DNA from: a virus
IMG/VR virus record: IMGVR_UViG_3300042987_002978
Location: 1 to 64,000 of that record
Direction: 5' to 3' (one strand)
DNA length: 64,000 nucleotides
Part shown: positions 376 to 17,001 of the stretch, piece after piece
Numbering within the stretch: the first letter of the stretch is position 1
Layout of the letters: every line of letters starts with the position of its first letter
Position numbers and translations under genes: made by a program
The notes under the pieces: model-generated
What the model was told of the DNA's origin: nothing
Database searches by the model: none
What the model saw: only the letters and a program-made list of their open reading frames with translations

Positions 376-531
376 TTTGTTCTCCTTTTGTGTTCGGTGG
401 GGCGTTTGCCCCACTAATAACAGTATACACTATGGGTGTACGATTTACGCCCCATTTGGGCAAGTTTTACAAAAAGTCATACAACTGTAATACACTACGC
501 TATGCGGTCGGCAGTCACTCAGAGTGAGGGC

Positions 532-540
532 TGTGGATAA
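532..540 (-). promoter_or_regulatory. perfect DnaA box (TTATCCACA)
   Basis: TGTGGATAA on the + strand. Confidence 0.5.
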
Positions 541-606
541 CTTGTTAGGCGAACCTAACAAACTCCCTGCCGTTTGTGAAAGTGCGAACTTTCACAAACC
601 TGCTCC

Positions 607-672
607 TGCCCCTGCCACAAAAAATGGTGTTCCAGAATGTTCGGATTTATTTCGCGCTGAGCGTTCCCTTGG
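607..672 (+). repeat. conserved ~65-bp intergenic element, copy 1
   Basis: TGCCCCTG-N4-AAAAAATGGTGTTCC-N9-GGATTTATT-N~11-GTTCCCTTGG. Confidence 0.9.
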
Positions 673-734
673 ACCCGCCCGGGGGCGCGAGGTGGGCGCG
701 GCCTTACACCCCGCAAGGCCGCGCCCAGACGCTT

Positions 735-1007
735 CTATTGCGCTTGTGGCGCGTCTGTTCCGTATCCGTACTGAAACTCGTAGCACTGCTCTCCAAAGAA
801 CCCTTCTAGGAATCCGTTGGTGAACGCCATGAGTAGTTCATCGGTGAGTTGTGTTCCGTATTTCATTGCGAGCAAGACAAATGCGCCTGAGATGTGTTCC
901 TCAATTTCGCCCTGCTTGCCTTCGCGGGATTCGAGTTGGGCAAACTTACACCCAGCGTCAAACCCCATTTCGCCGACCCACGATGAGTCAGATGTGTATT
1001 CGTTCAT
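735..1007 (-). CDS. hypothetical early protein
   Basis: ORF with own promoter and RBS AAGGAG. Confidence 0.7.
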   Translation of the reverse strand: MNEYTSDSSWVGEMGFDAGCKFAQLESREGKQGEIEEHISGAFVLLAMKYGTQLTDELLMAFTNGFLEGFFGEQCYEFQYGYGTDAPQAQ

Positions 1008-1203
1008 TGTGTTTCTCCTTGCTGTTGTATGAGGTGGGATTACCTCATACCCTAATTATAGGTGTTTGTTAGACAGTCGTCAAGTCAGAACGCTCGATGT
1101 CACACATTTGTAACATTCGCCCGCTGCCTCTGCCGCCCGGGGTCGAATTGCCCCGCGGGGGAAGGAGGTAGAACCCGCGGGGCTTCTCGACTTTCGCCCG
1201 CCG

Positions 1204-1341
1204 TCAGTCCCACTCTCGGACTGTCGGCGCGGGCTTGCGCTTGTGGTGGATAGTCACCGCGCGCGTACGCAGTCCGTCGGCGTAAGCCTGTCGGTCTGCC
1301 GTGTTCCACGCTCGGCGTTTGTTGTGTTTGTTCTTGCTCAT
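1204..1341 (-). CDS. small basic protein, probably leaderless
   Basis: TTGCGA-N17-TATACT lies 6 nt before the ATG of MSKNKHNKRR. Confidence 0.6.
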   Translation of the reverse strand: MSKNKHNKRRAWNTADRQAYADGLRTRAVTIHHKRKPAPTVREWD

Positions 1342-1451
1342 AAGTTTAGTATAACACCTTTCTAGTGTTTTCGCAACTTGTCGGGGAAGTTTTGTTCCTG
1401 TCGCCCTGTGGCTGGCGGTGGGCGCTTCTCGTCCCACCGCCAGCCCAGCCG

Positions 1452-1649
1452 TTAGCGTACGGCTACGGCTTCTTGGGCGAACTTCCGCAGGACTTCCAGC
1501 AACTCATTCGTGTAGAAGTGAATGCTGGTCGTATTGCGGTGCTCGTCGGTAATCTCAACGGTCAGCGATGCGCTGTCGTAGGGACTGCCGTTGACGGTGA
1601 CTATTACGTCGTCCGCTTTTACGCCGTGTGCGTGTATGTAGTGGTTCAT
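1452..1649 (-). CDS. hypothetical early protein
   Basis: promoter 1691-1719, RBS AAGGAG. Confidence 0.7.
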   Translation of the reverse strand: MNHYIHAHGVKADDVIVTVNGSPYDSASLTVEITDEHRNTTSIHFYTNELLEVLRKFAQEAVAVR

Positions 1650-1824
1650 TTCTATTTCTCCTTGTTGTGTTGGTATTGCCTTATGTTATTAGTATAACAC
1701 ACTTTCGGCAGTTTCGCAACTATCCGAAAGAGATTTTTTCGCCCGCTTGCCTCTGCCGCCCTTCGGCGGCTCTCGCCCTGGGGCTAGGTGGTTGCCCACC
1801 TAACCCCATTATGGCGAGGGGGTG

Positions 1825-2070
1825 TTACACGGTTTCGGTGTAACCCTTCAAGGCAACGCCTTTACGAAGTTTGCCCATGCCGTGCTTATCCGACATTGAG
1901 CCCCAGCCGTTGCTAACTTGCTGGAATTCGTTGCCGTTCAGCACCGCCATCAGCGTGGAGTAGTGCCAGATTTCCCGACGGGTGTCGGATACCTGAACCG
2001 CTCGCCACGATGACGCTTTGAGGGTGCGCCCCGTTTTGATTTCGTTTGTGATTAGGTTTGTGATTTTCAT
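1825..2070 (-). CDS. hypothetical early protein
   Basis: promoter 2093-2121, RBS GGAGGA. Confidence 0.7.
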   Translation of the reverse strand: MKITNLITNEIKTGRTLKASSWRAVQVSDTRREIWHYSTLMAVLNGNEFQQVSNGWGSMSDKHGMGKLRKGVALKGYTETV

Positions 2071-2151
2071 TTTGTTTATTCCTCCTAGTTTTAGTATAGC
2101 ATACTGTTAGACATTTAGCAACCTGAGACGCGAATTTCTGCCTCCGGCCGC

Positions 2152-2190
2152 CCGCCCGTTGGGTGGGGCTTGCGCCCCACCCGTTCGGCG
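2152..2190 (-). terminator. GC-rich terminator hairpin (representative of the cassette terminators)
   Basis: GGGTGGGGC-TTGC-GCCCCACCC directly after a stop codon; similar hairpins at ~4899-4928, 6574-6601, 9086-9114. Confidence 0.6.
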
Positions 2191-2191
2191 C

Positions 2192-2434
2192 TTAGTCCAG
2201 TTGGGGCTTTGCGCTGGTGTCGGTGTACCGCTTACCGCCACGCTCACGGGCGGGGAATAGCGGGTACGACTTTCTGCCCGTATCGGGGTCGGTGTAGGTC
2301 ACGGGCAGGAATGCGCGGGTGCGTACTCCGTTGCGGGTGACGATAGTGGCGCCTTTGCGGGCGTACTTGCGAAGCCATGCCGTATCGGGCAGGTTCATTT
2401 CGGGCATCTCACCCGAAGCGGTTAGGGTAATCAT
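2192..2434 (-). CDS. hypothetical early protein
   Basis: promoter 2481-2509, RBS AAGGAG. Confidence 0.7.
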   Translation of the reverse strand: MITLTASGEMPEMNLPDTAWLRKYARKGATIVTRNGVRTRAFLPVTYTDPDTGRKSYPLFPARERGGKRYTDTSAKPQLD

Positions 2435-2607
2435 TTTGTTCTCCTTAGGTTCGGTGAGGCGGGATTACCTCACTACTTATACTGTATCACAAACTAGGCA
2501 GTTTCGCAACTCCTGAGGCATTATTTTTGTTTCATTTGTGTTACAAGTTATTCATCACTCTGAGTGGTCGTTTCTCACGCTCCGTGGCCGCCGGCTCCCG
2601 GCAATGC

Positions 2608-2676
2608 TGCCTCCGCCCCCCCGAAAAATGGTGTTCCTTCACAATTGGATTTATTCCGTATGCGGCGTTTCCTTGA
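2608..2676 (+). repeat. conserved ~65-bp element, copy 2
   Basis: GAAAAATGGTGTTCC-ttcacaatt-GGATTTATT...CGTTTCCTTG. Confidence 0.9.
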
Positions 2677-2799
2677 TGGCACCCGCCCGCGCGCGGCACT
2701 CTCCCACTATCTCCATTATGGCGTAGGGGTGTTACACGGTTATCTGTCGGGCGGGCGTTCACCTTAGGCTGTTGCCCACCCGACAGAACTCCGTTGTGC

Positions 2800-3081
2800 T
2801 TAGGCGTTGGCGTACAAGGCTTTGGATACCTCGTCGCTGGCGTGGCGTCGCGCGTCGTCTTCGGCAGTCTCGCCGTAGAACGCCTGCTTGTAGATACGCT
2901 TGCCAGCGTCGTAGATAGTCACCATCGTTGCCGGGATTACGAACCCGTCAGCGTAAGTCATGTCTGCCTCGTAGTAGCACACGGTGACTTCGTTATTCCA
3001 CCCTTTGGGGTAGGCTTCCGAACTCACTTCGCACCACGCGGTAGTCAGTCGCGCGCCTTTGGGCATTCGTTTGAGTGTCAT
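2800..3081 (-). CDS. hypothetical early protein
   Basis: start MTLKRMPK after RBS AAGGAG; promoter 3128-3156. Confidence 0.7.
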   Translation of the reverse strand: MTLKRMPKGARLTTAWCEVSSEAYPKGWNNEVTVCYYEADMTYADGFVIPATMVTIYDAGKRIYKQAFYGETAEDDARRHASDEVSKALYANA

Positions 3082-3238
3082 TCTGTTCTCCTTGCTGTTC
3101 GTGTGGGCGGGATTGCCCACTACTATTATTGTATCACACTTATTCTGTTCTCGCAACCTGAGACACAAACTTTTAGTTTCTGCCTCCGCCCGCCCTATCG
3201 GGTTGGTCGGGCAGGTTGCCCTGCCCGACCGTATCCCG

Positions 3239-3499
3239 TTAGGCGTTTGCGGGTTCGTTTATGCGGGTGACGTTCTCAGCGGGGAACGCAGGCTTCACCG
3301 TGTGGGCGAAGTAGCGACCGACCGATGCTTGCGTCAGCATTGGCACGACCAGCGTCAGCGGGCAACCCGTGTAGGCGTACTGACTGCCGTTCTGAAAGCC
3401 GACAAACAAAGTGCCGATACCGCTTTCGTCGTCGGAATAGAACGCCCATTTGGCGATTGCCGTGCTGTTCGGCGTTGTCTGGTGGATTGTGATTTTCAT
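3239..3499 (-). CDS. KTSC domain protein (second paralogue)
   Basis: NSTAIAKWAF...TLFVGFQNGSQYAY...ASVGRYFAHTVK. Confidence 0.7.
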   Translation of the reverse strand: MKITIHQTTPNSTAIAKWAFYSDDESGIGTLFVGFQNGSQYAYTGCPLTLVVPMLTQASVGRYFAHTVKPAFPAENVTRINEPANA

Positions 3500-3711
3500 T
3501 CTCATTACCTCTTTCATTGGGTTGTAGTGGGCGGGATTGCCCACTACTTAGATTGTAGCGACTGTTAGACAGATTTACAACCTGCCCGACAGTTTTTTAT
3601 TCGGTGGGTTGCCCCACTAATAATAGGATACCATACTGTTAGACACTTGTCTAGTCCTGAGTGTTACAAGTGTGTTACAAGGTTTGTGCTTGTTCGCACT
3701 TTCACAAACTT

Positions 3712-3777
3712 TGCCCCTGCCACAAAAAATGGTGTTTCCTAATTATTGGATTTATTCTGCGGCGGCGATTTCCTTGG
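3712..3777 (+). repeat. conserved ~65-bp element, copy 3
   Basis: TGCCCCTGCCACAAAAAATGGTGTTTCC...GGATTTATT...TTTCCTTGG. Confidence 0.9.
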
Positions 3778-3837
3778 CCTCCGGCCCGCTGGCGTTGCGT
3801 GCCGGCACCAAGGAGACGATGCCGGCACGCTTGCCAA

Positions 3838-3993
3838 TCAGAGGAATTCGATTGGGTCGCGGTCCGAGATTTCCGAGACATCGCAATCGCGTAAGCACGC
3901 TTGCGCTTCCCAGAAGTCTTCTTCCGTGAGTGGCGCGAGGCCTTCTTGCACATCTTCTGGCAAGTAGTCCCACCACGTTAGTTTTTTATCCAT
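3838..3993 (-). CDS. small acidic hypothetical protein (51 aa, not in ORF track)
   Basis: MDKKLTWWDYLPEDV...PIEFL; RBS AAGGGAG, promoter 4015-4043. Confidence 0.65.
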   Translation of the reverse strand: MDKKLTWWDYLPEDVQEGLAPLTEEDFWEAQACLRDCDVSEISDRDPIEFL

Positions 3994-4086
3994 TGGGTTC
4001 TCCCTTCTATTATCAGTGTATCACACTATTTTATGTTTTGCAACTATTTATGCCAATTTGGCCTCCGCCGGGCCGCGGGCTCGGCC

Positions 4087-4374: not shown

Positions 4375-4695
4375 TCACACTATTTTAGTTTTGCCAACCT
4401 CTACGGCCTTGTCAAAGTCACATTCCTCAAACCCCGTCAAACGGCGCTCTGCGAGGATACGGTCACGCACAGCCTCACGGTCGGCGCTGTCACCGTCAAA
4501 CGGGAACAGCGGATTTGGGTCGGTGAGATGGGCGTTCACCGCACTCACTATTTCCATTTCGTAGGCGAATGGATACAGTGCGTCTGGGTGCTCCAGCGAA
4601 TAGAACTCACGGCAGTAGTCCGTGAATTCCTCTACTGATGTCCATTCTGGTATTTCGCGTCCAGCGTGCGGGCTGGTTCCTAGTGTGTGTGTCAT
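4375..4695 (-). CDS. hypothetical acidic protein, probably leaderless
   Basis: TATAAT 6 nt upstream of the ATG. Confidence 0.65.
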   Translation of the reverse strand: MTHTLGTSPHAGREIPEWTSVEEFTDYCREFYSLEHPDALYPFAYEMEIVSAVNAHLTDPNPLFPFDGDSADREAVRDRILAERRLTGFEECDFDKAVEVGKTKIV

Positions 4696-4804
4696 ACTCT
4701 CATTATAGGGACTGTTAGACAGATTAGCAACAGTATTAGTATTACAATCTGATTACAGCCGGCCGGCCACGCTGCGTGGTGGGCCACCACCGTGAGTGAA
4801 CCCT

Positions 4805-4876: not shown

Positions 4877-4934
4877 CCTCTGCCCGGCGGCGGGTAGTGG
4901 CTGGTGGGGAGGAGAGCCCCACCAGCCGAACCGC

Positions 4935-5345
4935 TTAGAGGTAGCGAGCGACTGCCCCATACGAGGAAGTACGGACATACTCCTCGTCGGAGAGTTCCAG
5001 CACGCGAATTGCGTTGCTGAGTTCCTCTACTGCTGCCCTGTTGGAGTGCTCGCAGAAACTATTGTCCTTCTTGGGAAGGGTAATTTTGTGCGAGAAGGTG
5101 ACGGTCACTTCCTCAAACTCGTTCGTGTCGTTACGGTACGAGTAGGGGAAAGACACTTCCTTCGGGGTCAGTTTGCCTGACTTGACGAGTGCCGCCACCG
5201 ACTTCTTGATTTCGGCGGTTGCCTTCGTTCGCGCCTTCTCTGCGTTGGCGTAGTCCTTGGCTTCCTGTTCTTTCTTGGCTAGTGCTGCTTTGAGTGCCGC
5301 GAGCAATTTCGCCTTCGTCACTCTCACATTTACTGTCTTACTCAT
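4935..5345 (-). CDS. hypothetical protein with Lys/Ala-rich coiled-coil N-terminus
   Basis: RBS GAAAGGA, promoter 5402-5430. Confidence 0.75.
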   Translation of the reverse strand: MSKTVNVRVTKAKLLAALKAALAKKEQEAKDYANAEKARTKATAEIKKSVAALVKSGKLTPKEVSFPYSYRNDTNEFEEVTVTFSHKITLPKKDNSFCEHSNRAAVEELSNAIRVLELSDEEYVRTSSYGAVARYL

Positions 5346-5432
5346 TATGTTGTATTCCTTTCCTGTTTGGTTTCTAGTGGTGCGGTTGCCCCACTAGTAT
5401 TATTGTATCACACGCTTTGGAGTTTCGCAACC

Positions 5433-5621
5433 TTACGGCGTGGGAGTGTTGTGGAGTTCGTACTCCAAATTCAGTTGTGCCGCTGCCCGCCGCGCTTCTT
5501 GCTCGGTGGCAAACACTTGTTCGCAGTTCTGCGGCTCGTTCTCGTCGCAGAACCACAGTTCCCAGCCCTCGCGGGTCGGGAATACTTGGTAGTTGTATGG
5601 GTACGGGTGTTTTGTTCTCAT
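5433..5621 (-). CDS. hypothetical protein, leaderless
   Basis: promoter 5628-5656 directly before the ATG. Confidence 0.6.
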   Translation of the reverse strand: MRTKHPYPYNYQVFPTREGWELWFCDENEPQNCEQVFATEQEARRAAAQLNLEYELHNTPTP

Positions 5622-5756
5622 AGTTCTAGTGTATCACACTTTCGGGAGTTTCGCAACCTTCTAGCGTTTCGCGGCACTCTTGGCAGAGGCCCCCGCTGAG
5701 GGCCGACCATTCGTCGCCGCAGTTCGTGCAGGCCTGCTCGTTGCCAAATTCTGGGT

Positions 5757-6104
5757 TCATCGCCAGCAACTCGCGCGGTAGGCGACTTCGGCTAGTTGGT
5801 CGCAGTAGACCTCGCGCTGCTCGAACTCCACCACGCCGCTATTGCGGTCTGCGCCGCGCGTAATGCGACGGACACGGCGCACAATATAGGTGTCGTTCCA
5901 GTCGAGGATTACCTCGACGGCTCGCGAAGTGCCGCAGTGAAGCCACGCGCCGATAATGCGGTTTTGGTCGGTGCTGTCGCGCAACGAAGCCCAAACGCCG
6001 CCGCAGATAGCGAGCGTGTTCATTCTGCCGATTTGCTCGATTATTTCGTGAGCGTTGCAGTCTCGACCTTCGCGGTCAATAATTGCCATTGTGTAAGTAG
6101 TCAT
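5757..6104 (-). CDS. hypothetical phage protein
   Basis: start MTTYTMAII after RBS GAAAGGA; promoter 6142-6170. Confidence 0.7.
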   Translation of the reverse strand: MTTYTMAIIDREGRDCNAHEIIEQIGRMNTLAICGGVWASLRDSTDQNRIIGAWLHCGTSRAVEVILDWNDTYIVRRVRRITRGADRNSGVVEFEQREVYCDQLAEVAYRASCWR

Positions 6105-6264
6105 TGTGTTTCCTTTCCTGTTGGTATTGCCTGATAATCTAAGTGTATCACACTCACGCGAGTTTTGCAACTCTCCGCGAGAAATTCTGCCTCCGGCCCG
6201 CCGCTTGCGGCGAGTTTGGGCTGGTGGGGGAAGGAGGGAACCCCACCAGCCGCACTCGTTCTGT

Positions 6265-6492
6265 TTACGCTTTCACGACTGCGCTACGGAGTAGAGCCAC
6301 CCACTCGTCGTAATCGCAGGTGATGCGGTCGGGCTCTGTGCCGCAGGGGTAGCAAGCCGCCTGATGCCAGACCTTAGCGTCGCACTCCATACACACGGGG
6401 CAGTCGTCTCCGAAAGCACCCCATGAGTGAGTAGCGAAGTTCGCATCTCGTTGTTCCTTTGTTCCCTGAAAGGGAACGGGGAAGTTTGCCAT
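6265..6492 (-). CDS. small Cys-rich (putative Zn-binding) protein
   Basis: CPVCMEC...CYPCG; RBS AGGAG. Confidence 0.6.
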   Translation of the reverse strand: MANFPVPFQGTKEQRDANFATHSWGAFGDDCPVCMECDAKVWHQAACYPCGTEPDRITCDYDEWVALLRSAVVKA

Positions 6493-6609
6493 TGTCTTGT
6501 CTCCTGTCTTGGGTTGGTATTGCCTTGTACCCTAAGTGTATCACACTTTCGGGAGTTTCGCAACTCGGTAGTGGTCGGGCAGGTAATCCCACCTGCCCGA
6601 CCGACCGAA

Positions 6610-6834
6610 CTAGACCCGAACCTTTGAGGTCGTGGTCTCGGTGACTTCCACCTCGCTGAATGCCTTAGCAAGGTCGAGCACCTTCTCGCCATTGGCAGGG
6701 CTGAGCAACACGGTGAGTTCGCCAATGCGAACTTCCAAGTTGTTGCCGCTGACCCTGACCTTGATTTGGTCAATGGCAGTGTTCCACGAATAGAGGCTTG
6801 CGCTCTGTCGTGGCTTTGCTTGTACGGTATCCAT
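6610..6834 (-). CDS. hypothetical early protein
   Basis: start MDTVQAK; promoter 6878-6906. Confidence 0.6.
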   Translation of the reverse strand: MDTVQAKPRQSASLYSWNTAIDQIKVRVSGNNLEVRIGELTVLLSPANGEKVLDLAKAFSEVEVTETTTSKVRV

Positions 6835-7037
6835 TCTGTTCTCTTTCTGTTCGGTGGGGCTTGTTCCCCACAACTCAATAGTACCACATTGTTAGACAGA
6901 TTACAACCTTTGCGGCGAGAAAGATTTATTTCTTTCTAAGTTGCTTTCTGCGTCAGTTTGTGCTACAATGGTAGTAGCGGGCAAGATACGAGCAGCCCTG
7001 TGCCGGTCGCCCGGGGCTGCCCCTGAGAGGCAGTTCC

Positions 7038-7107
7038 TGCCTCCGCCCTCCGCAAAAAATGGTGTTCCTTGAATATTGGTTTTATTCGGCGCGGCGATTT
7101 CCCTTGG
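7038..7107 (+). repeat. conserved ~65-bp element, copy 5
   Basis: CAAAAAATGGTGTTCC-ttgaatatt-GGTTTTATT...TTTCCCTTGG. Confidence 0.9.
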
Positions 7108-7158
7108 GCCTGATGGCCCTGGCGCGCGGAAAGGAGGGAAGGCGCGCCAGGACCTAGG

Positions 7159-7335
7159 TCAGGCGTTTTGGAACACGGCGTCCGACTCGCAGAACGAATT
7201 AAAGTTTTCGTCATCTGTCGGGTCTAGACGCAACGCACCGCACCAATTGTAGTAGCGGTTTATCTTGTCTTTAAAGCGTTTGAACTCCGCATCGCTTGTG
7301 GCGAAGGAGACAAATCCGCGATATTCGTTTTTCAT
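7159..7335 (-). CDS. hypothetical protein (58 aa, not in ORF track)
   Basis: MKNEYRGFVSF...VFQNA; RBS GAAAGG, promoter 7357-7385. Confidence 0.65.
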   Translation of the reverse strand: MKNEYRGFVSFATSDAEFKRFKDKINRYYNWCGALRLDPTDDENFNSFCESDAVFQNA

Positions 7336-7352
7336 TGTGTTTACCTTTCTAT

Positions 7353-7784
7353 TTATATTGTATCACTAAATTCGTCGGTTTCCAACTGTCCCGACAGGGT
7401 AAGTTTGGCGAGTTCTATCATCTCGTCAATGTCCCCGCCCACGCAGTCAAGGTGCTCCAAGTCGGGAAAGTTATCCGTCTCTTGGTACAAGTCGAACCAC
7501 GGGTTGTTGTGGAACTCTATTTTCTCGTTCTCGACCGCTTCTGCCATTGCTTCGTCGGAGTTGAGCCACTCTGGGAAGTCGTGGGAGTAGCGGATTACGT
7601 CCGTACCCTTGTCTTCGTTGTTGATGTGCAGGCGCATCTCGCCGTCGCAGTAGACGTGGATAGCCGGCAGGCCTTCCACTTCCACGGACGCGACCCAAGT
7701 GTGCGCGTAGCCGTCACAGTAGAACTCTGACCCCTTGCGGGCGTCGTCGTACTCTGGCGTTTTGCTTATCTTGAATTCGGTCAT
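7353..7784 (-). CDS. hypothetical acidic protein
   Basis: start MTEFKISK, coupled to the upstream gene by an ATGA overlap. Confidence 0.7.
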   Translation of the reverse strand: MTEFKISKTPEYDDARKGSEFYCDGYAHTWVASVEVEGLPAIHVYCDGEMRLHINNEDKGTDVIRYSHDFPEWLNSDEAMAEAVENEKIEFHNNPWFDLYQETDNFPDLEHLDCVGGDIDEMIELAKLTLSGQLETDEFSDTI

Positions 7785-7948
7785 TGTTCTACGGGTCCTT
7801 TCATGTCGTGATGCCACGCCCACGAGCGCTTGCAGGTTGCGCAGGCGTAATACTCGTAGCCGTTGTGTGGTTCTGACTGTTCGGAATACTCAATTTCTCC
7901 TGAGCAGTCTTTGTGTGACTCTAAGAGTTCTTCTATTGTTTGGTTCAT
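7781..7948 (-). CDS. small Zn-ribbon-like protein (55 aa, not in ORF track)
   Basis: HKDC...YACATC; RBS GAAAGG. Confidence 0.55.
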   Translation of the reverse strand: MNQTIEELLESHKDCSGEIEYSEQSEPHNGYEYYACATCKRSWAWHHDMKGPVEQ

Positions 7949-8070
7949 TGTTTTGCCTTTCCTGTTAGTTTCAGTATACCATACTGTTAGACAGATTACA
8001 ACTCTTTTGACAGAAATTGCCCCTGCCCGCCGTTGGCTGGTGGGGCTTTCGCCCCACCGAGCCTGTCGGT

Positions 8071-8514
8071 CTAGCGGAAGATACCTGCCACGGCGTTGGC
8101 AAGCGCACCTGTCGCTTTACCTTCGTCAATGGTGAGTTCTTCGTTGCCTGCCATTTGAAGTGCGCTGGCCATTGAGCCGTCACGGCCAACGACGACGAGC
8201 AACTCCACACGCCTGCGCTCTGGGTGAACGCTGGGTGGGCAGTCGTTGTCGTCTACGGGCGAGGCCCAGCCACCCGTGATGACTGCGTAGTAGTTCACGA
8301 ACGGGTCTGGGTTGATGTTCTCAATGAGTTTGTACACATCGCCGTTCTTCTGCTCGTAGTCAAGCACCAGAATCGGGTGGCCGTCAGCGAACGCCACGGG
8401 GGCGCAACGGGCCTTAGAAAGCCTGTCTGCTGGGGTCTTATTCAGGTGGTCGGCTCCGAGCAATAAGGCGATTTGCGCCATGCTCAGGTCGGTATTCGTT
8501 TCTAGGGTATTCAT
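8071..8514 (-). CDS. hypothetical protein
   Basis: RBS GAAAGGA, promoter 8562-8590. Confidence 0.75.
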   Translation of the reverse strand: MNTLETNTDLSMAQIALLLGADHLNKTPADRLSKARCAPVAFADGHPILVLDYEQKNGDVYKLIENINPDPFVNYYAVITGGWASPVDDNDCPPSVHPERRRVELLVVVGRDGSMASALQMAGNEELTIDEGKATGALANAVAGIFR

Positions 8515-8589
8515 TGGGTTGGTATTCCTTTCCTTGTTGGGTTGGTATTGCTCTTACTCATAGTGTATCACATACGGATACACTAAGCA

Positions 8590-8810
8590 ACTACCGACAG
8601 CAACCGTCGTTGCTCACATACTGACGCTCGGCGGATAGCAAGTCCGCTTGCGTCGGATTACAGGGACTGACAGGGAAGGCTCGACGCAGAAGGGACTACG
8701 AGCCGACTGCCTAGGACAGTCGTCGGTAAGTATTGCTGGTGATACAACTTGTGTAAGTGATGTATTCCTATGTGTTGTCAGTAATTGCTTACTGTATTCG
8801 TATTGCCTTA
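8590..8810 (-). ncRNA. candidate structured non-coding RNA
   Basis: consensus promoter 8818-8846 with no RBS-linked ORF; closing helix UACCGAC/GUCGGUA and several internal hairpins. Confidence 0.4.
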
Positions 8811-8972
8811 TACTCTAAGTGTATCACATCTTTGTCGCTTTCGCAACTCTTTGCGATACTTTCTTTCGGGCTTGCGCCCATATCTATACTGTACCATACT
8901 GTTAGACAGATTACAACTCGTCAATATTACAATTGTGTGACAGGCCAAGACAGCCCGGGGCTTGCCCCGGTC

Positions 8973-9038
8973 TGCCCCTGCCACAAAAAATGGTGTTCCA
9001 AGAGAATTGGTTTTATTCTGCTCACGCCGTTCCCTTGG
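8973..9038 (+). repeat. conserved ~65-bp element, copy 6
   Basis: TGCCCCTGCCACAAAAAATGGTGTTCC-aagagaatt-GGTTTTATT...CGTTCCCTTGG. Confidence 0.9.
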
Positions 9039-9121
9039 CCCCTGCTTCCGCCCGGGGGCGGGTTCGCATCCGCGGGCGAACGCCTGTTCGGGTGGGGGTT
9101 CGCCCCACCCGAACCTTGCGG

Positions 9122-10168: not shown

Positions 10169-10339
10169 TGGTATTGCCTTTCTTGTTTGGGTTGATGTGG
10201 TTGGTATTACTGCTTACATTACTAAGTGTATCACATAGTTAGCGTTTCCGCAACTATCTACGAAACTTTCTTTCGTCCGTCTCGCATACTTACAATGTAT
10301 AGGGTAAATACTGAAACCACAACCTGTTTGGAAAATTAT

Positions 10340-10360
10340 TTATCCACAGGCTGTGGATAA
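10340..10360. promoter_or_regulatory. inverted pair of perfect DnaA boxes
   Basis: TTATCCACA-GGC-TGTGGATAA. Confidence 0.7.
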
Positions 10361-12009: not shown

Positions 12010-12108
12010 TGTTTTCTCTTTCTGTTTGGGTTGGTTATTTTGTGTGGGGTGGCACCGACTACGGTGCTCTTACTCGGGTATCATTGCGAACCCCACAACT
12101 CTATTGTA

Positions 12109-12264
12109 TCACGAAGTTGGCGTTTCCGCAACTTCTGATGTCAAAAGATGAAGCCTGATATCCAAAAGCAGGTCTGTCATCTCAGCCGAGGACACGAGGT
12201 CTCTACCGGAGATTCCGGCGAGGGCCTCATCCACGAGTTTCTTTATCGTCTCTTGGTTGTCCAT
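12109..12264 (-). CDS. hypothetical protein (51 aa, not in ORF track)
   Basis: MDNQETIKKLVDEAL... Confidence 0.55.
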   Translation of the reverse strand: MDNQETIKKLVDEALAGISGRDLVSSAEMTDLLLDIRLHLLTSEVAETPTS

Positions 12265-12273
12265 GCGGTCAGG

Positions 12274-12495
12274 TTAGTACTTTCCAATGTCTAGGAAGCC
12301 CGTACCGTTGAGTTCTGGGTCGGCAGCGACTAGCGCGTATGTCCCGTCCGTGAACTCAATGACAGTGGTCGGATTGCTTGACTCAAACCACATCAGGTCG
12401 TCCATCTCCACTTTCGTGACTGGACGAACGCTAGAAACAGTTTTCCCAACAAGTGATTGGGCGTAGTGCTTCATGGCGATTGTCGGGCGACTCAC
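12274..12495 (-). CDS. hypothetical protein
   Basis: overlaps the HTH gene stop; ADPELNGTGFL motif. Confidence 0.65.
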   Translation of the reverse strand: MSRPTIAMKHYAQSLVGKTVSSVRPVTKVEMDDLMWFESSNPTTVIEFTDGTYALVAADPELNGTGFLDIGKY

Positions 12496-12719
12496 TTGCC
12501 GATTCCCTTCATGAGGTCTGCTGGGCGCACGTCGAGTGCGATACAGAGACGGAAGAAGGTGTCGAGGTTCGGGGAAAAGTGCCCGTTCTCGATGCGATTC
12601 ACGGTCTTGCGGTCGATGCCTGCTGCTTTGGCGAGGTCATCCTGTGAGATACCTGCGTCAATGCGCAACTGCTTCATTCGGCTGCGAACCGTGTTCTGTT
12701 GGGTATTGGTGGTTGTCAT
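12492..12719 (-). CDS. XRE-family helix-turn-helix regulator
   Basis: MKQLRIDAGISQDDLAKAAGIDRKTVNRIENG. Confidence 0.9.
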   Translation of the reverse strand: MTTTNTQQNTVRSRMKQLRIDAGISQDDLAKAAGIDRKTVNRIENGHFSPNLDTFFRLCIALDVRPADLMKGIGK

Positions 12720-12834
12720 TGTTATTGCCTTTCTTTGGTTGGTTATTGCTTATGTTCTAAGGATACCACATAATGGACACGGACACAACCTCTTCTGAGG
12801 AAAATTTTGCCGGTGACCAGGCCGGCAGTGAAAC

Positions 12835-13098: not shown

Positions 13099-13189
13099 TG
13101 CTTTCTTCTTTCTATGTTGGTTGGTATTACATCTTCATTATACATGTTTGTCTAACCATTCACAACCTCTGCGCGCACTTCTGTGCGCG

Positions 13190-13442: not shown

Positions 13443-13448
13443 TATTGA

Positions 13449-14126
13449 TTAGTTCATGCTGGACATCAACTCGGCTAGAGCCTTGTCGCAGGCGTTGGAC
13501 ACTTTGTCCTGAACCTCGCACTGCCAGTCACCGAGTTGTTCGAAGAAGGCATCTGGGTCCTTATCGTACAGTTCCTCAAGTTCCGCTGGTCGTACCGGCT
13601 CCTCACTGCCTTCTCCCTCCAAGAATCCGTTACGGAAGATGGAGTAGCAGGCAAATGCGTCGCTCTCTTCTGTGGAGACCACGGTGAAGATGAGTTTCGG
13701 GAACTTGGCTGAGATGTTGCGGATGAGTCCGTCTGCCGGACCCCACGCAGTCTCGTAGTACGCCGAGATGTATGTGTCGGTCGGTCCGACGATGTTGTTG
13801 TCATCGACATCAAACGAAGTCCAGTCGAAGTCACACGCACCCCACTTGGTTCCCCAGTTGTTGGAGTCGCAAGCCCAGTCGTACCAGTCCTTGTAGCCGT
13901 ACTTAGCGATGTTCGCCTGTTCTAAGGCGGTCTGCTCAGCCTGCTTCTCTGCGTCTCCGTACCACGCCGACGGCGTTGCTTGGAGTTCTGCCGGGATTGG
14001 GAAGAGGTGGTTCAGTCCGTGTTGGAAGGTCCCATCCTCTGCGACGGTCTTGGTTGCGTCAACGAACTTCTGGAGTTCGTCACGGTCACCGATGATGTCC
14101 ATGTTGTTGTAGCACCAGTTTGGCAT
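13449..14126 (-). CDS. DUF1281/Api92-YubB ferredoxin-like domain protein
   Basis: MPNWCYN...WYDW...NWGTKW...YETAWGP. Confidence 0.8.
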   Translation of the reverse strand: MPNWCYNNMDIIGDRDELQKFVDATKTVAEDGTFQHGLNHLFPIPAELQATPSAWYGDAEKQAEQTALEQANIAKYGYKDWYDWACDSNNWGTKWGACDFDWTSFDVDDNNIVGPTDTYISAYYETAWGPADGLIRNISAKFPKLIFTVVSTEESDAFACYSIFRNGFLEGEGSEEPVRPAELEELYDKDPDAFFEQLGDWQCEVQDKVSNACDKALAELMSSMN

Positions 14127-14258
14127 TATGTTCTCTTTCTGTTGAGTTGGTATTGCTTACACTTACATTGTATCACTTATCTGGCTTGTTTACAACCTTC
14201 CTGCCGACAATAACTGCCGTCAGATAGACGATAAACATCACCAGGAGAAGAAGGCCCT

Positions 14259-14492
14259 TCATACGTACGGCCATCCCGCAACATCGTTTGTGGGGTCGCA
14301 CCATTCGGACGGACTGACCTGTTTCGTCTGACCATACTGAAGATGGTATTCGCCCCATGCCTGACGGTCTAAGTCAGACATGGTTTCAGTCCAACACTCC
14401 CAGTCTTTTGCCAACCAGTCGTTTGCCCTGATGCGCAGTGGCGGATTCGAGTAGTAGGTACCACTCTCTATGTCAAGCCAGATGGTAGCCAT
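14259..14492 (-). CDS. hypothetical protein
   Basis: start MATIWLD, coupled to the upstream stop. Confidence 0.55.
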   Translation of the reverse strand: MATIWLDIESGTYYSNPPLRIRANDWLAKDWECWTETMSDLDRQAWGEYHLQYGQTKQVSPSEWCDPTNDVAGWPYV

Positions 14493-14722
14493 TAGAAGAA
14501 ACGCTCCGAAATGGCTGCCGACATCTCGCAGAAGTCTGCGATGTGCTCGACCAAGTCCCAATCGCTGAGTTCATGGTCGTCCTCGACATCCTTGATTGCC
14601 AAGATGCCGTCGAGCACGAATCCTGCGAAGCCATCCTCCATCTCGTCGGTCGGCTTAGCCGAGCCTTCTGCGACGGAGATAACTGCGCCGAGGTATCTCT
14701 GGTTCCATTCGTCTAGGGTCAT
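14492..14722 (-). CDS. hypothetical acidic protein
   Basis: RBS GAAAGG, promoter upstream. Confidence 0.65.
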   Translation of the reverse strand: MTLDEWNQRYLGAVISVAEGSAKPTDEMEDGFAGFVLDGILAIKDVEDDHELSDWDLVEHIADFCEMSAAISERFF

Positions 14723-14900
14723 TGTGTTGCCTTTCTGTTGAGTTGTGTTCATAACTAGATTGTACCACATATTTCGTCGTATGACAACCTGCGGTGGGGT
14801 TTGGGATGCAATCCCTCCCCACCACAGGCCGCTAGTGGCTGGGTCATGTTGCCGTGTAAATAAGAGGGGATACGCGCAGCCAAGCCCTAGCCATTAGCGA

Positions 14901-15365
14901 CTACCACGATGAGTGGTAGTAGAACTCCCACTCGTCAGGCATAGACAGACAGTTGTCAATGACGGCAACCGTGTGCTTGATGTCGTGGAAATAGTATTCG
15001 TCGTACTCGTACGAGCCGAAGAAGAAGCCCTGTTGAGTTGGCAGTTCTTCGTCTGCCACTGCTGGCTGGAGAAGAACCTTCTGGCACAAAGCCTTCAGTT
15101 CTTCCAACTTCTCACGCCCGACATAGGCGTAGCGACAGTCGTCCTCGCCGTTCTGGCAGTTGTCCACGAACCATTGGTGAATGGCGTTCGCCTTTCGCCA
15201 ATAGCCGATGGAGACTTCCAACTGAATACTCGGAAGGTCGGTTTTCACATGCTTTGCGATACCCGACTTCTTCAGGAGTTCGTGGAACTCTTTTTTATTC
15301 TCTTCTGTTCGCCACTCCGCACCTGAGTAATACTTCTTGGCGGAAAGGTACATATCTAATCCCAT
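14901..15365 (-). CDS. conserved phage hypothetical protein (MGLDMY...YWRK family)
   Basis: MGLDMYL, YWRKANAIHQWF, LPTQQGFFFGS, YYHSSW. Confidence 0.8.
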   Translation of the reverse strand: MGLDMYLSAKKYYSGAEWRTEENKKEFHELLKKSGIAKHVKTDLPSIQLEVSIGYWRKANAIHQWFVDNCQNGEDDCRYAYVGREKLEELKALCQKVLLQPAVADEELPTQQGFFFGSYEYDEYYFHDIKHTVAVIDNCLSMPDEWEFYYHSSW

Positions 15366-15446
15366 AGTGTTTTATCTTTCTGTGTTGAGTTGGTTATTGC
15401 TGTTACTTAGATTGTATCACTTATCTTCGGACTTTGCAACCTCTGG

Positions 15447-15683
15447 TTAGAGGATGCCCACTTCCTGCCACTTGTGGAGTTCTTTAGCGGAGAGGAAAGA
15501 CGGTGCTTTCCCTTCTACTTCTTCGGCATCCCACGGCTTGTCCCAGTCAAGAGGACAGATGTCCACGACTTTAGAACTATCGAAGTTGCCCCATGCTTTC
15601 TCAAGGGCATCTTCCACGGACTCCGCCTCAATCAACCACTGAAGGTCAAGGTCAACGGTCTGCCTGATAATAAATTGTTTCAT
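15447..15683 (-). CDS. hypothetical protein
   Basis: own promoter and structured leader. Confidence 0.65.
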   Translation of the reverse strand: MKQFIIRQTVDLDLQWLIEAESVEDALEKAWGNFDSSKVVDICPLDWDKPWDAEEVEGKAPSFLSAKELHKWQEVGIL

Positions 15684-15814
15684 TGGTTTCTTCTTTCTGT
15701 TGAGTTGATGTTGGTGTGGGGACGGGCTTTTTGGTCTAGAACCTCAACCCTTTACAGCAGACGATGTCATCTGCCCACAACTACATTGTACCACATTGTA
15801 GCACACTTGGCAAC

Positions 15815-16120
15815 CTACGAAACCTCGATTTCGTAGAAAGCCTCGGATTCTGCCGGCTTGTAGGTCACGAAATACCCGATGCGGTTGACGAGGTGGTAGC
15901 CGTTGGTGACTATCGTGCCGTCATCGCCGTCGATGTATGTCCAGACATTGTCAGGCTTGGCCTTGACATACGCAAGAACAAAGTCCAGTTCTTTCCCGTA
16001 TGTCTCAAACATAAGTCCGTAATCGCCGTCATTAAACGACGCATCTTTGTCAAAGACATTGACGATTGGCTCGTATTTCTCGCACCACTTGTCAAAGGGC
16101 ATCTTGATAAGAACGGTCAT
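15815..16120 (-). CDS. conserved hypothetical phage protein
   Basis: FETYGKEL...VWT..D...GYHLVNRIGYFVT. Confidence 0.7.
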   Translation of the reverse strand: MTVLIKMPFDKWCEKYEPIVNVFDKDASFNDGDYGLMFETYGKELDFVLAYVKAKPDNVWTYIDGDDGTIVTNGYHLVNRIGYFVTYKPAESEAFYEIEVS

Positions 16121-16287
16121 TCGTCGTCCCCGATTTCTTCGTAGTCTTCCACTTCCCAAGTGATTTCGCTTCGCTTGGCGTTGGTGAACATGTCTGCGAA
16201 CAAATCCATAGCCTCGTCTTCGGTCTCTGCCTCAACGAAGTCGGAGAAGTACGCCGACAAGTGATAACGGTATTTTGTTTTACTCAT
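16117..16287 (-). CDS. small acidic hypothetical protein
   Basis: start MSKTKY; VEAETEDEA motif. Confidence 0.6.
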   Translation of the reverse strand: MSKTKYRYHLSAYFSDFVEAETEDEAMDLFADMFTNAKRSEITWEVEDYEEIGDDE

Positions 16288-16343
16288 TTGGTTGTCTTTC
16301 TGTGATTGGGTTATGATTACATTGTAGCATACTCTAGCATGCT

Positions 16344-16649
16344 TTACAACTTGTGCCACCGGTATTCTTCGTTTTTATTCACTACATCTTGGCTACAAGT
16401 ACCGACTACTTCCAGCGTGTCGCCGTCAATGACTCGGTAGCAGGTCTCGCACAGCCAGTGCTTGCCGTCCCACTCTCCGATAGTCGGCTCGCAGCGTTCG
16501 CCTATTTCGCTACAAGAGGCGAAGCCGTCTCCGTCTGGTTTGTTGCCGCAGCGGCACACCCACCAGTCGCTTGCTTCCTCAATGATGTATTCACGAGTAA
16601 GAGCAGGGTGGGCGAGGAGCATGTCCGTCCAGTGAGGATTATTTTCCAT
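16344..16649 (-). CDS. Zn-finger-like hypothetical protein
   Basis: CRCGN...C...CETC. Confidence 0.65.
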   Translation of the reverse strand: MENNPHWTDMLLAHPALTREYIIEEASDWWVCRCGNKPDGDGFASCSEIGERCEPTIGEWDGKHWLCETCYRVIDGDTLEVVGTCSQDVVNKNEEYRWHKL

Positions 16650-16887
16650 TCTTCGCCGCCCAGTACGCTTTTGCTTCTGCTTCTTGGTCGTCAGTACCGT
16701 CCGAGAGAACTATCTCAAACTGGTGAAGGCCATTGATGATGCGGAAGGTCTCCGCATTGGCAGGGCTGTCCCAAGTGAGGGCATGATGGAGGGAACTGGT
16801 GGTTCCGCCTCGGTCTCCCAAGAGTTTTGCCGCGAATCGCCGGTATCCCTTGTCGTTTGTTTTCTGTAATAGGTATTGTGTTGTCAT
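16639..16887 (-). CDS. hypothetical protein, leaderless
   Basis: TTGACA-N17-TATACT just before MTTQY. Confidence 0.6.
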   Translation of the reverse strand: MTTQYLLQKTNDKGYRRFAAKLLGDRGGTTSSLHHALTWDSPANAETFRIINGLHQFEIVLSDGTDDQEAEAKAYWAAKNGK

Positions 16888-17001
16888 AACCCAAGTATAC
16901 CGGATGTCAGACAACTTGTCAACCTTTTTCCGAGATTGTTCAGAATTTCACAAACACTGTTAGGTATTTTATTTGAGACACTTTTGTCTTTTTGTCTCAT
17001 C

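What the first reader, a model, noticed from the sequence alone, without database searches (positions are those of the whole stretch)
478..16953. Host master-regulator-like boxes (GlnR/MtrA, DnaA, IdeR, Rex) clustered between the repeat and the next early promoter
Seen: an exact GlnR-type GTAAC-N6-GAAAC box at 2529-2544 (minus strand). Related 11-bp-period direct repeats occur at 478-493, 1099-1114, 3663-3678, 4741-4756 and 8926-8941, mostly 10-30 bp upstream of a -35 element. Perfect DnaA boxes occur at 532-540 and as an inverted pair at 10340-10360. An IdeR/DtxR-like GTTAGGCGAACCTAA lies at 544-558. Rex-like TTGT-N-TTCACAA dyads lie at 574-597, 3690-3707 and 16936-16953. A CACTC(A/T)GAGTG palindrome lies at 515-527 and 2556-2566. 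Established: these resemble actinobacterial nitrogen/envelope, replication, iron and redox regulator sites. Inference: the phage either wires early cassettes to host physiology (a sensor panel) or uses the first-entering DNA as a decoy for host regulators. Region 478-600 stacks five different sites in ~120 bp.
Basis: partly seen in the sequence, partly recalled or inferred. Interest (0 to 1): 0.8.

Follow-up and report, generated by a model that had tools for sequence, protein, structure and literature searches.

The report
Operator stacks before phage early promoters
An uncultured freshwater phage of Actinobacteria places conserved stacks of short protein-binding-type DNA motifs in front of several early promoters; the DnaA boxes probably recruit the host replication initiator, but the "GlnR", "IdeR" and "Rex" labels do not hold up, and those motifs look like the phage lineage's own operators.

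Summary
They are not scattered. Each lies in the 50-200 bp between a copy of a ~75-nt repeated junction element and the next minus-strand sigma-A-type promoter. One exception, 1099-1114, lies before a promoter with no junction copy.

The same motif families recur in five related uncultured phage contigs, partly in the same order (dyad M1, palindrome M2, M3, direct repeats M4, then the promoter). They are real cis elements, not chance.

Read as host consensus sites, only the perfect DnaA box is clearly over-represented: 6 against 0.47 in shuffles. All six are non-coding, and the inverted pair is conserved in four phages. The Rex consensus is weakly enriched. All 23 distinct M1 copies carry G where Rex needs T, and they have invariant bases in the spacer that Rex leaves free. 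The GlnR and IdeR consensus matches are at chance level. The "GlnR box" is a degenerate copy of a TGTnACA-N4-TGTnACA repeat, and the "IdeR box" is a separate palindrome, TGTTAGG-N4-CCTAACA.

I also found an SOS-box-like family, CGAAC-N4-GTTCG.

The host is actinobacterial (two WhiB genes, leaderless genes). Which proteins bind these motifs is untested. Earlier notes of this scan cover the junction repeat and the promoter-spacer motif on this same genome.

The parts
607..682 (-). Copy of the ~75-nt junction repeat ('D2'). It marks the upstream edge of the control region. Other copies start near 2605, 3712, 4804, 7036, 8967, 10392, 12829, 16996, 18959 and 19968.
   Evidence: 8-11 co-oriented copies in relatives G001, G008, G009 and G010, 3 each in the fragments G002 and G003
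571..600 (.). M1 long dyad: TTGTGAAAGT-N4-ACTTTCACAA with an inner palindrome GTKCGMAC.
   Evidence: near-invariant in a 4-phage alignment
543..560 (.). M2 palindrome TGTTAGG-N4-CCTAACA.
   Evidence: 6 copies in G001 with variable centres; absent from the matching module of G008 and G010
532..540 (-). Single perfect DnaA box, TTATCCACA.
   Evidence: specific to this genome at this position
515..527 (.). M3: core YCACTC-WSM-GYGR followed by CTGCCGACC.
   Evidence: tandem duplicate in G008 and G010
466..500 (-). M4-type 11-bp-period units (TGTATTA, TGTATGA, TTGTAAA).
2555..2567 (.). M3 copy.
2528..2545 (-). M4 copy whose second unit is degenerate (TGAAACA). This produces the 'exact GlnR box' at 2529-2544.
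   Evidence: identical in G008; G001 and G010 carry TGTTACA or TGTGACA units instead
3681..3710 (.). M1 copy.
3662..3679 (-). M4 perfect direct repeat, TGTAACA-N4-TGTAACA.
4740..4757 (-). M4 copy, 16 bp (second unit start to -35 start) before the -35 of the promoter at 4702-4730, which drives a leaderless gene.
8925..8942 (-). M4 copy, 15 bp (second unit start to -35 start) before the -35 of the promoter at 8888-8916.
1098..1115 (-). M4 copy before the promoter at 1055-1083. No junction repeat is adjacent.
10340..10360 (.). Inverted pair of perfect DnaA boxes, about 13 bp upstream of the -35 of the promoter at 10294-10322. That block starts with a DUF932 gene.
   Evidence: conserved in G008 and G010; one arm is degenerate in G001
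16936..16953 (-). M1 short form, TTGTGAA-ATTN-YGAACAA, before the promoter at 16894-16922, which drives a leaderless gene.
   Evidence: conserved in 6 phages, where it abuts the -35; here it lies 11 bp further away
16975..16998 (.). Dyad GAGACA-N12-TGTCTC.
   Evidence: conserved in 6 phages
9077..9090 (.). M6, an SOS-box-like palindrome CGAAC-N4-GTTCG, directly after a terminator-type hairpin and 77 nt before the core of the next junction repeat.
12492..12719 (-). The only recognisable DNA-binding protein among 31 early ORFs scanned: an XRE/Cro-type helix-turn-helix protein, first gene after the junction copy at 12829.

Best explanation
The boxes are cis-regulatory protein-binding sites of a phage lineage. 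The early region (window 1-20 kb, continuing at 102.8-104.85 kb of the record) is cut into blocks by a ~75-nt junction repeat.

Behind most junction copies lies a control region built from a small vocabulary of motifs:
- M1: TTGTGAAAgT-N-G-M-AC, often extended to a 26-bp dyad.
- M2: TGTTAGG-N4-CCTAACA.
- M3: CACTC-WSM-GYG.
- M4: TGTnACA units with an 11-bp period.
- DnaA boxes.
- SOS-like boxes.

A near-consensus sigma-A promoter follows each control region.

Most likely (inferred): sequence-specific proteins bound here tune the block-leading promoters. M4 sits next to the -35 in an activator- or repressor-type position. M1 to M3 lie further upstream.

The DnaA boxes most likely bind host DnaA and couple some promoters to the host's replication state.

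M1 to M4 are most likely operators of phage-encoded early proteins (the XRE protein or small proteins without known relatives). Their invariant positions do not follow the Rex, GlnR or IdeR consensus sequences.

Shown here: existence, placement, enrichment and conservation. Not shown: any binding or any regulatory effect.
For: Placement between the junction repeat and the promoter.

Conservation of motif types and order in five related contigs.

Enrichment in relatives of patterns defined on this genome, with 0 of 100 shuffles reaching the observed count.

M1 logo from 23 distinct copies. A8, T10, G13, A15 and C16 are invariant, and there is an inner palindrome GTKCGMAC that Rex operators lack.

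M2 arms are conserved while the centre varies. Arm changes in relatives are not compensated, which argues against RNA hairpins.

DnaA:
- 6 vs 0.47 expected.
- 4 vs 0.74, 4 vs 0.13 and 2 vs 0.16 in relatives.
- All six copies are in non-coding regulatory DNA, and the pair is conserved in four phages.
- TTATCCACA forms arrays next to dnaA in sampled Actinobacteria.

There is no phage homologue of the DNA-binding domain of DnaA, LexA, Rex, DtxR or OmpR.

Host DnaA acting at phage promoters has precedent in lambda: PMC3985674.
Against: Only one recognisable DNA-binding protein was found among 31 early ORFs. That is one candidate for at least five motif families, so phage-encoded binders are assumed, not identified.

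M1 variants with a CGCACAA right half are only 2 mismatches from the Rex consensus. They are 1 mismatch from the validated S. avermitilis rex-promoter operator read on the other strand.

The perfect 24-bp outer arms of M1 occur in four actinobacterial genomes, next to cydA in two and a whiB-like gene in one. Both are known Rex targets in Streptomyces.

M4 fits the published degenerate MtrA pattern GTnACn-n5-GTnACn.

The host genome is unknown, so its own regulator motifs could not be compared.

The DnaA box at 532-540 is not conserved.
Confidence: 0.5

Rival explanations
1. Host sensor panel. Most or all box types are read by conserved host global regulators: DnaA, LexA, Rex, and an MtrA/GlnR-type response regulator. 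Each early block would then be wired to a different aspect of host physiology.
For: The host is actinobacterial.

The phage record has no homologues of these regulators' DNA-binding domains and only one recognisable DNA-binding protein among the early genes.

DnaA boxes and SOS-like boxes match their consensus cores exactly and are strongly enriched.

The Rex consensus with <=2 mismatches is enriched in G008 (4 vs 0.14) and G010 (2 vs 0.15).

The composite arms of M1 occur at cydA and whiB-like genes of Actinobacteria.

M4 has the 11-bp direct-repeat architecture of the OmpR/PhoB family, placed upstream of the -35.
Against: GlnR and IdeR consensus matches are never above chance.

None of the 23 M1 copies has the Rex base at position 13, and A8 and T10 are invariant in Rex's free spacer.

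The M1 core was not found in 401 genomes sampled evenly across the phylum.

M2 keeps its own arms while the positions that would matter to IdeR vary.

Most M1 copies lie upstream of the promoter rather than over it, which is unlike known Rex operators.

Any palindrome can be matched loosely to one of the many known consensus sequences.
Confidence: 0.2
2. Passenger sequence. The boxes are parts of a repeated junction DNA that spreads by recombination between cassettes, and they are similar because of common descent, not because of function.
For: The junction repeats are recombination breakpoints in natural populations. Contigs from three freshwater metagenomes join 599 to 1739 and 4878 to 9077, and contigs from two of them join 8945 to 4821. 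Boxes are gained and lost as blocks between relatives.
Against: Boxes stay near-invariant while the DNA between them diverges or is replaced.

The same box types occur in different combinations, spacings and orientations, so they are not one repeat.

Symmetric arms with free centres are the signature of dimer binding sites.
Confidence: 0.08
3. RNA-level elements. The dyads act as hairpins in transcripts, for example as terminators, processing sites or leader structures.
For: Several are perfect inverted repeats. The pair at 10340-10360 was picked up by the terminator-like scan, with a 9-bp stem and a T-rich tail.
Against: Arm changes in relatives are not compensated: M2 has CCTTACA and CCTGACA, and the DnaA pair has TGTGGAAAA.

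Sequence rather than pairing is conserved.

M4 is a direct repeat.

The sites lie upstream of the mapped promoter motifs. The eight RNA contigs listed of the eleven laid from one metatranscriptome fall in coding parts only, which is weak evidence.
Confidence: 0.05
4. Replication or partition sites. The direct repeats and DnaA boxes are iterons or origin elements, or the dyads are centromere sites for the two ParB-like proteins encoded at 26-29 kb.
For: DnaA boxes are combined with 11-bp-period repeats. A denser cluster lies at 102.85-103.1 kb, with a DnaA-box pair, CACAAGCG repeats and a poly-C run. ParB-like genes are present.
Against: The boxes recur before seven or more separate promoters at fixed distances from the -35. 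An origin would be a single locus.

In M1 the half-sites GTGAAA and TTTCAC face away from each other. That is the reverse of the bacterial parS arrangement, which I give from my own knowledge of the parS consensus.
Confidence: 0.07

Closest known systems
Host DnaA acting at phage promoters (phage lambda: DnaA boxes near pO, DnaA-stimulated transcription at the origin; PMC3985674). DnaA as a general transcription factor (PMC8203912).
   Same: Perfect DnaA boxes in phage regulatory DNA next to promoters. The phage has no DnaA of its own.
   Different: Here there is an inverted pair about 13 bp upstream of a -35, plus single boxes in several control regions of an actinophage. Binding and effect are untested.
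Stoperators and operators of Cluster A mycobacteriophages (PMC9283540, PMC6550527)
   Same: An actinophage genome carries many copies of short conserved sites in intergenic DNA of the early region, read by a phage-encoded repressor.
   Different: Stoperators are one asymmetric 13-14-bp site type with one known repressor. Here at least five site types are stacked in a partly conserved order upstream of promoters, and no cognate protein has been identified.
Actinobacterial Rex operators, including composite sites at cydA and wblE (PMC5355995)
   Same: The left half-site TTGTGAA is perfect. The short form has the same 18-bp geometry. The outer arms of the 24-bp form equal those at cydA of Kitasatospora and Streptacidiphilus.
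   Different: The right half is YGMACAA, never TTCACAA. There are invariant bases in the spacer and an inner palindrome GTKCGMAC. Most copies lie upstream of promoters.
OmpR/PhoB-family tandem sites (MtrA GTnACn-n5-GTnACn; GlnR gTnAc-n6-GaAAc; PMC13189361, PMC10235972)
   Same: Two units with an 11-bp period, placed just upstream of the -35.
   Different: The unit is the small palindrome TGTnACA. The degenerate host patterns are not enriched. Distances to the -35 fall on both faces of the helix (15-16, 21 and 25-26 bp).
Actinobacterial SOS box tCGAAC-N4-GNNCGa (PMC9380542). LexA-controlled phages such as CTXphi, 186 and GIL01 are cited from my own knowledge.
   Same: The M6 core CGAAC-A-NN-Y-GTTCG matches in 17 distinct copies across four phages.
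   Different: The outer bases are G or C instead of T and A. Many copies sit after terminator hairpins and before the junction repeat, not over promoters.

Membership tests
DnaA box (site for host DnaA) | 9-bp consensus TTATCCACA (TTWTNCACA) | tested here: met
   Exact at 532-540, 10340-10348 and 10352-10360, plus three copies outside the window.
DnaA box (site for host DnaA) | More frequent than composition predicts, and placed in regulatory DNA | tested here: met
   6 vs 0.47 expected, 0 of 200 shuffles reach it. All six copies are non-coding. Relatives show 4 vs 0.74, 4 vs 0.13 and 2 vs 0.16.
DnaA box (site for host DnaA) | The same 9-mer is used by the host phylum at its own origins | tested here: met
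   Arrays of up to 18 copies in 3.2-kb loci around dnaA, in 28 sampled actinobacterial genomes. Two unpublished genomes were left out.
DnaA box (site for host DnaA) | Conserved in relatives at the same position | tested here: inconclusive
   The pair at 10340-10360 is conserved in four phages. The box at 532-540 is present only in this genome.
DnaA box (site for host DnaA) | Bound by DnaA | not testable with these tools
   Needs a gel shift or footprint.
Rex operator | 18-bp inverted repeat TTGTGAA-N4-TTCACAA with few mismatches | tested here: inconclusive
   The three sites have 2, 3 and 4 mismatches. With <=2 mismatches: 3 vs 0.57 expected. With <=3 mismatches: 7 vs 6.3.
Rex operator | Symmetric right half-site (TCAC core) and a free 4-bp spacer | tested here: not met
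   None of 23 distinct copies has T at position 13. A8 and T10 are invariant.
Rex operator | The operator form occurs in host-phylum genomes | tested here: inconclusive
   The phage core TTGTGAAAGTNCGNAC was not found in 401 sampled genomes. The outer arms with a TTCAC-forming centre occur at cydA and whiB-like genes.
GlnR box | gTnAc-n6-GaAAc, above chance and conserved | tested here: not met
   One exact site at 2529-2544. The pattern GTNAC-N6-GANAC gives 2 vs 3.7 here and is not enriched in relatives. In G001 and G010 the matching site has GTTAC or GTGAC units.
MtrA-type (OmpR/PhoB family) tandem site | Direct repeat GTnACn-n5-GTnACn upstream of the -35 | tested here: inconclusive
   Exact at 1099-1114 and 3663-3678; the others have one degenerate unit. 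The degenerate pattern gives 3 vs 1.5. The stricter TGTNACA-N4-TGTNACA is enriched in relatives. Distances to the -35 are 15-26 bp.
IdeR/DtxR iron box | 19-bp palindrome TTAGGTTAGGCTAACCTAA, above chance, with the same centre of symmetry | tested here: not met
   Best match is 14 of 19. With <=5 mismatches: 1 vs 0.57. The site's own symmetry centre is offset by 2.5 bp. Relatives keep TGTTAGG and CCTAACA and vary the centre.
LexA SOS box (added here) | tCGAAC-N4-GNNCGa | tested here: inconclusive
   The core is exact in 17 distinct copies. Counts: 2 vs 0.30 here; 6 vs 0.10, 5 vs 0.05 and 4 vs 0.01 in relatives. Outer bases differ, and many copies are not at promoters.
Phage-repressor operator array (stoperator-like) | Multiple copies of a conserved site confined to phage regulatory DNA, plus a cognate phage repressor | tested here: inconclusive
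   Copy number and confinement are met. No cognate protein is identified; the XRE gene at 12492-12719 is the only candidate.

The most novel reading that the evidence does not exclude
A widespread lineage of freshwater actinophages builds each early gene block's control region from interchangeable sites for several host global regulators (DnaA, LexA, a Rex-like and an MtrA-like protein). These sites sit behind a shared junction element that also serves as a recombination point. Early expression would then be a combinatorial read-out of host replication, DNA damage, redox state and envelope or cell-cycle state.
Probability: 0.15. Interest if true: 0.75.

Novelty: new variant of a known kind. 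Interest (0 to 1): 0.42.

Why it matters
The phage occurs in lake and reservoir metagenomes of 11 studies; up to two of these may be the source of the assembly. Its hosts, freshwater Actinobacteria, are abundant and hard to culture.

A defined vocabulary of conserved operator motifs, and a probable direct use of host DnaA, give concrete targets for three lines of work:
- Working out how such phages time their early genes.
- Assigning functions to early proteins without known relatives, by asking which protein binds which box.
- Linking phages to hosts through shared regulator motifs.

This result also corrects an over-reading. Most of the host-regulator labels rest on loose similarity.

Tried and rejected
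- Near-identity search of 17 kb against the phage collection found no match.
- Rfam gave only one sub-threshold hit, and no tRNA is in the window.
- Most hits of the 17-mer junction core in viral contigs were single chance matches; only three contigs were relatives.
- The genome-collection scan for the 24-bp M1 arms gave 38 hits across many phyla, about a dozen of them in Marinimicrobia or unnamed MAGs with an identical TTAT centre. Only four were in Actinobacteria, and no host lineage emerged.
- The phylum-wide scan for the M1 core gave nothing, and the tool showed no taxonomy, so host families could not be picked.
- Pfam and PHROGs scans of 31 early ORFs gave one regulator and otherwise unknowns.
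The RNA contigs cover coding parts only, which says nothing about the boxes.
- I considered and dropped parS (the half-sites are in reverse order), CIRCE (same arms as M3 but spacing 1 rather than 9) and CRP/GlxR (same geometry problem as Rex). These three comparisons rest on consensus sequences from my own knowledge.
- I did not resolve what the junction repeat itself does. By eye it has no consistent RNA stem and no sigma-A or sigma-54 promoter pattern.

Full report
**What the DNA is.** The window is the first 64 kb of a 104,851-bp virus record. It has about 53% G+C. It encodes a siphovirus-type tape measure protein, ParB-like proteins and a helicase, and has no close relative among deposited phages.

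Two WhiB-family genes and leaderless genes point to an actinobacterial host. In the leaderless genes a TATAAT-type -10 lies 6-7 nt before the ATG, at 4695 and 16887. The sequence is present in lake, reservoir and other freshwater metagenomes of 11 studies, up to two of which may be the source of the assembly.

**Architecture of the early region.** Genes in 1-20 kb run on the minus strand. I count 36 promoter-like sites of the form TTGnnn-N17-TAnnnT on that strand.

Twelve co-oriented copies of a ~75-nt element divide the region. Eleven are in the window and one is at 104,640. Its conserved blocks on the minus strand are CCAAGGGAACG, AATAAATCC, TGGAACACCATTTTTTG and CAGGGGCA.

The exception also precedes a promoter. 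The record's two ends cut through this region, and in relative G001 the same region lies inside a permuted contig. Nothing therefore marks 478-600 as a physical genome end or as first-entering DNA.

**Observation check.** All 14 strings exist as stated.

**Relatives.** A pattern scan and a protein-based scan of viral contigs found five related contigs. G001 is 106 kb. G008 is 59 kb and close (94% identity for one early protein). G009 and G010 resemble each other closely. G002 and G003 are fragments. The four larger contigs carry 8-11 co-oriented junction repeats and the two fragments carry three each.

Behind the repeats they carry the same kinds of boxes. In the module that matches 478-600 the order is:
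- This genome: M1, M2, DnaA box, M3, M4, promoter.
- G008: M1, M3, M3, M4.
- G001: M1, M2, M3, M4.
- G010: SOS-like box, M1, M3, M3, M4.

A four-way alignment shows M1, M3, M4 and the -10 region as conserved islands. M2 and the DnaA box at 532-540 come and go as blocks.

**The motif families:**
- **M1.** From 23 distinct copies the consensus is YTTGTGAAA(G/T)T(G/T)(C/T)G(A/C)AC, often continued to ..CACAAR. A8, T10, G13, A15 and C16 are invariant, and there is an inner palindrome GTKCGMAC. A short form, TTGTGAA-ATTN-YGAACAA, precedes a conserved leaderless gene in six phages.
- **M2.** TGTTAGG-N4-CCTAACA with a variable centre.
- **M3.** YCACTC-WSM-GYGR, often followed by CTGCCGACC and sometimes tandem.
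- **M4.** Two or three TGTnACA-like units with an 11-bp period. From the start of the second unit to the start of the -35 is 15-16, 21 or 25-26 bp. Most M4 copies precede promoters that carry TGTCTAACA in the spacer.

Patterns defined on this genome are strongly enriched in the relatives and confined to their early regions.

**Are they host regulator sites?** I took the consensus sequences from papers:
- Rex: TTGTGAANNNNTTCACAA (PMC5355995).
- MtrA: GtnAcC-n5-GTnAcn, or GTCACAgcg repeats (PMC13189361).
- LexA: tCGAAC-N4-GNNCGa (PMC9380542).

*GlnR.* The degenerate pattern is expected 3.7 times by chance and occurs twice. It is not enriched in any relative. The single exact box is an M4 copy whose second unit reads TGAAACA. 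In G001 and G010 the corresponding units are TGTTACA or TGTGACA.

*IdeR.* The site matches 14 of 19 positions. Matches of that quality are expected 0.57 times per genome. Its own centre of symmetry is offset from that of the iron box. The relatives conserve the arms TGTTAGG and CCTAACA rather than the positions the iron box needs.

*Rex.* The case is mixed.
- For: the left half is a perfect Rex half-site. The short form has Rex geometry with 2 mismatches. The consensus with <=2 mismatches is mildly enriched: 3 vs 0.57 here, 4 vs 0.14 in G008 and 2 vs 0.15 in G010.
- For: a scan of about 186,000 species' genomes for the 24-bp arms found only four actinobacterial hits. Two lie directly upstream of cydA (Streptacidiphilus and Kitasatospora), one lies upstream of a whiB-like gene, and one is next to a gene unrelated to Rex.
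- For: two of those four genomes, Streptacidiphilus and Kitasatospora, also carry the wblE-type site that Rex footprints in S. avermitilis.
- Against: in those genomes the centre creates a proper inner TTCAC half-site, and the phage centre does not.
- Against: none of 23 M1 copies has the Rex base at position 13, and bases that Rex leaves free are invariant.
- Against: the M1 core was not found in 401 genomes drawn evenly from the phylum.
- Against: most copies lie upstream of promoters, not over them.

I put Rex binding at roughly one in four.

*MtrA-type.* M4 has the family's architecture and fits the degenerate pattern. That pattern alone is not enriched (3 vs 1.5), and the distances to the -35 fall on both faces of the helix.

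*DnaA.* This is the strong case.
- The perfect 9-mer occurs six times against 0.47 expected. The relaxed consensus adds only one more site (7 vs 7.05), so the excess is specific to the perfect box.
- All six copies are in non-coding regulatory DNA.
- The inverted pair at 10340-10360 is conserved in G008 and G010, and with one degenerate arm in G001. In each it lies about 13 bp upstream of the -35.
- Relatives are enriched too.
- The same 9-mer forms arrays beside dnaA in sampled actinobacterial genomes.

**An added family.** CGAAC-N4-GTTCG, more fully sCGAAC-A-NN-Y-GTTCGs, occurs in 17 distinct copies across four phages. Counts are 2 vs 0.30 here and 6 vs 0.10, 5 vs 0.05 and 4 vs 0.01 in relatives.

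It matches the core of the actinobacterial SOS box. Many copies sit right after a terminator-type hairpin, 77-99 nt before a junction repeat. That is not where a LexA operator is expected.

**Who binds?** The phage record is 75% complete by the tool's estimate. It encodes no homologue of the DNA-binding domains of Rex, OmpR/PhoB-type regulators, DtxR/IdeR, LexA or DnaA. Among 31 early ORFs only the XRE-type protein at 12492-12719 is a recognisable DNA binder.

Both readings therefore stay open for M1 to M4: proteins of unknown family made by the phage, or host proteins. The invariant positions of M1, the self-defined palindrome of M2 and the chance-level host-consensus counts make me favour lineage-specific operators. 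For the DnaA boxes I favour the host protein.

**RNA structure as an alternative.** Arm changes in relatives are not compensated, and sequence rather than pairing is conserved. This argues against hairpin function.

**Population data.** Contigs from three freshwater metagenomes show joints at or next to the junction repeats: 599 to 1739 and 4878 to 9077 in all three, and 8945 to 4821 in two. The repeats therefore act as recombination points, and boxes can travel with cassettes. The eight RNA contigs listed of the eleven laid from one metatranscriptome lie in coding parts of early cassettes. That shows presence in an RNA library only.

**Verdict.** The kind of thing, operator arrays and host-factor sites in phage early control regions, is known. 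The multi-motif stack behind a recombining junction element in uncultured freshwater actinophages is a new variant.

Noticed in passing
window 9077-9090; also 104,597-104,610 of the record; relatives L109-L111 and L174-L177: SOS-box-like palindrome CGAAC-N4-GTTCG in 17 distinct copies across four related phages. It is strongly enriched and often sits directly after a terminator-type hairpin, 77-99 nt before a junction repeat.
   Followed up: partly
window 599, 1739, 4821, 4878, 8945, 9077: Contigs from three freshwater metagenomes join these places to each other. The junction repeats therefore act as recombination points that reshuffle early cassettes in natural populations.
   Followed up: partly
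window 16975-16998: Dyad GAGACA-N12-TGTCTC followed by AAATAAAATACC. It is conserved in six phages between the junction repeat and the M1 site before a leaderless gene.
   Followed up: partly
record 102,850-103,100 (outside the window): A dense non-coding cluster: a DnaA box with a degenerate inverted partner, CACAAGCG repeats, two AGGAGAAAT repeats and a poly-C run. It is conserved in G008. In G001 the DnaA box is flanked by two SOS-like boxes. This is a candidate replication origin or master control region.
   Followed up: partly
window 4695 and 16887 (start codons, minus strand): Leaderless genes. The ATG lies 6-7 nt after a TATAAT or TATACT -10 with no ribosome-binding site. The same holds in the relatives.
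   Followed up: partly
window 23762-23959 (minus) and record 101,004-101,195 (plus): Two WhiB-family genes, which mark an actinobacterial host.
   Followed up: partly
window 396-415, 2449-2470, 3103-3120, 3527-3548: G+C-rich stem-loops between the -10 and the ribosome-binding site of many early cassettes (GTGGGGC..GCCCCAC type). This is a conserved leader structure of unknown role.
   Followed up: no
window 1067, 2105, 3563, 3637, 4713, 6890, 7985, 8900 (start coordinates): TGTCTAACA sits in the spacer of a promoter subclass: nine copies in the record, all in one orientation, and nine in G001. Most M4 repeats precede promoters of this subclass.
   Followed up: partly
L134:6065-6086, L153:706-727, L148:2515-2536: In Streptacidiphilus and Kitasatospora a perfect 24-bp dyad TTGTGAAAGT-N4-ACTTTCACAA lies just upstream of cydA. 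In a Mycobacteriales genome it lies upstream of a whiB-like gene. These are probably composite Rex operators.
   Followed up: partly
window 2815-2984, 3237-3417, 5172-5371, 7160-7331, 12108-12258, 12491-12641, 15389-15539, 15699-15915: Short contigs from one freshwater metatranscriptome match coding parts of eight early cassettes at 99-100% identity.
   Followed up: no
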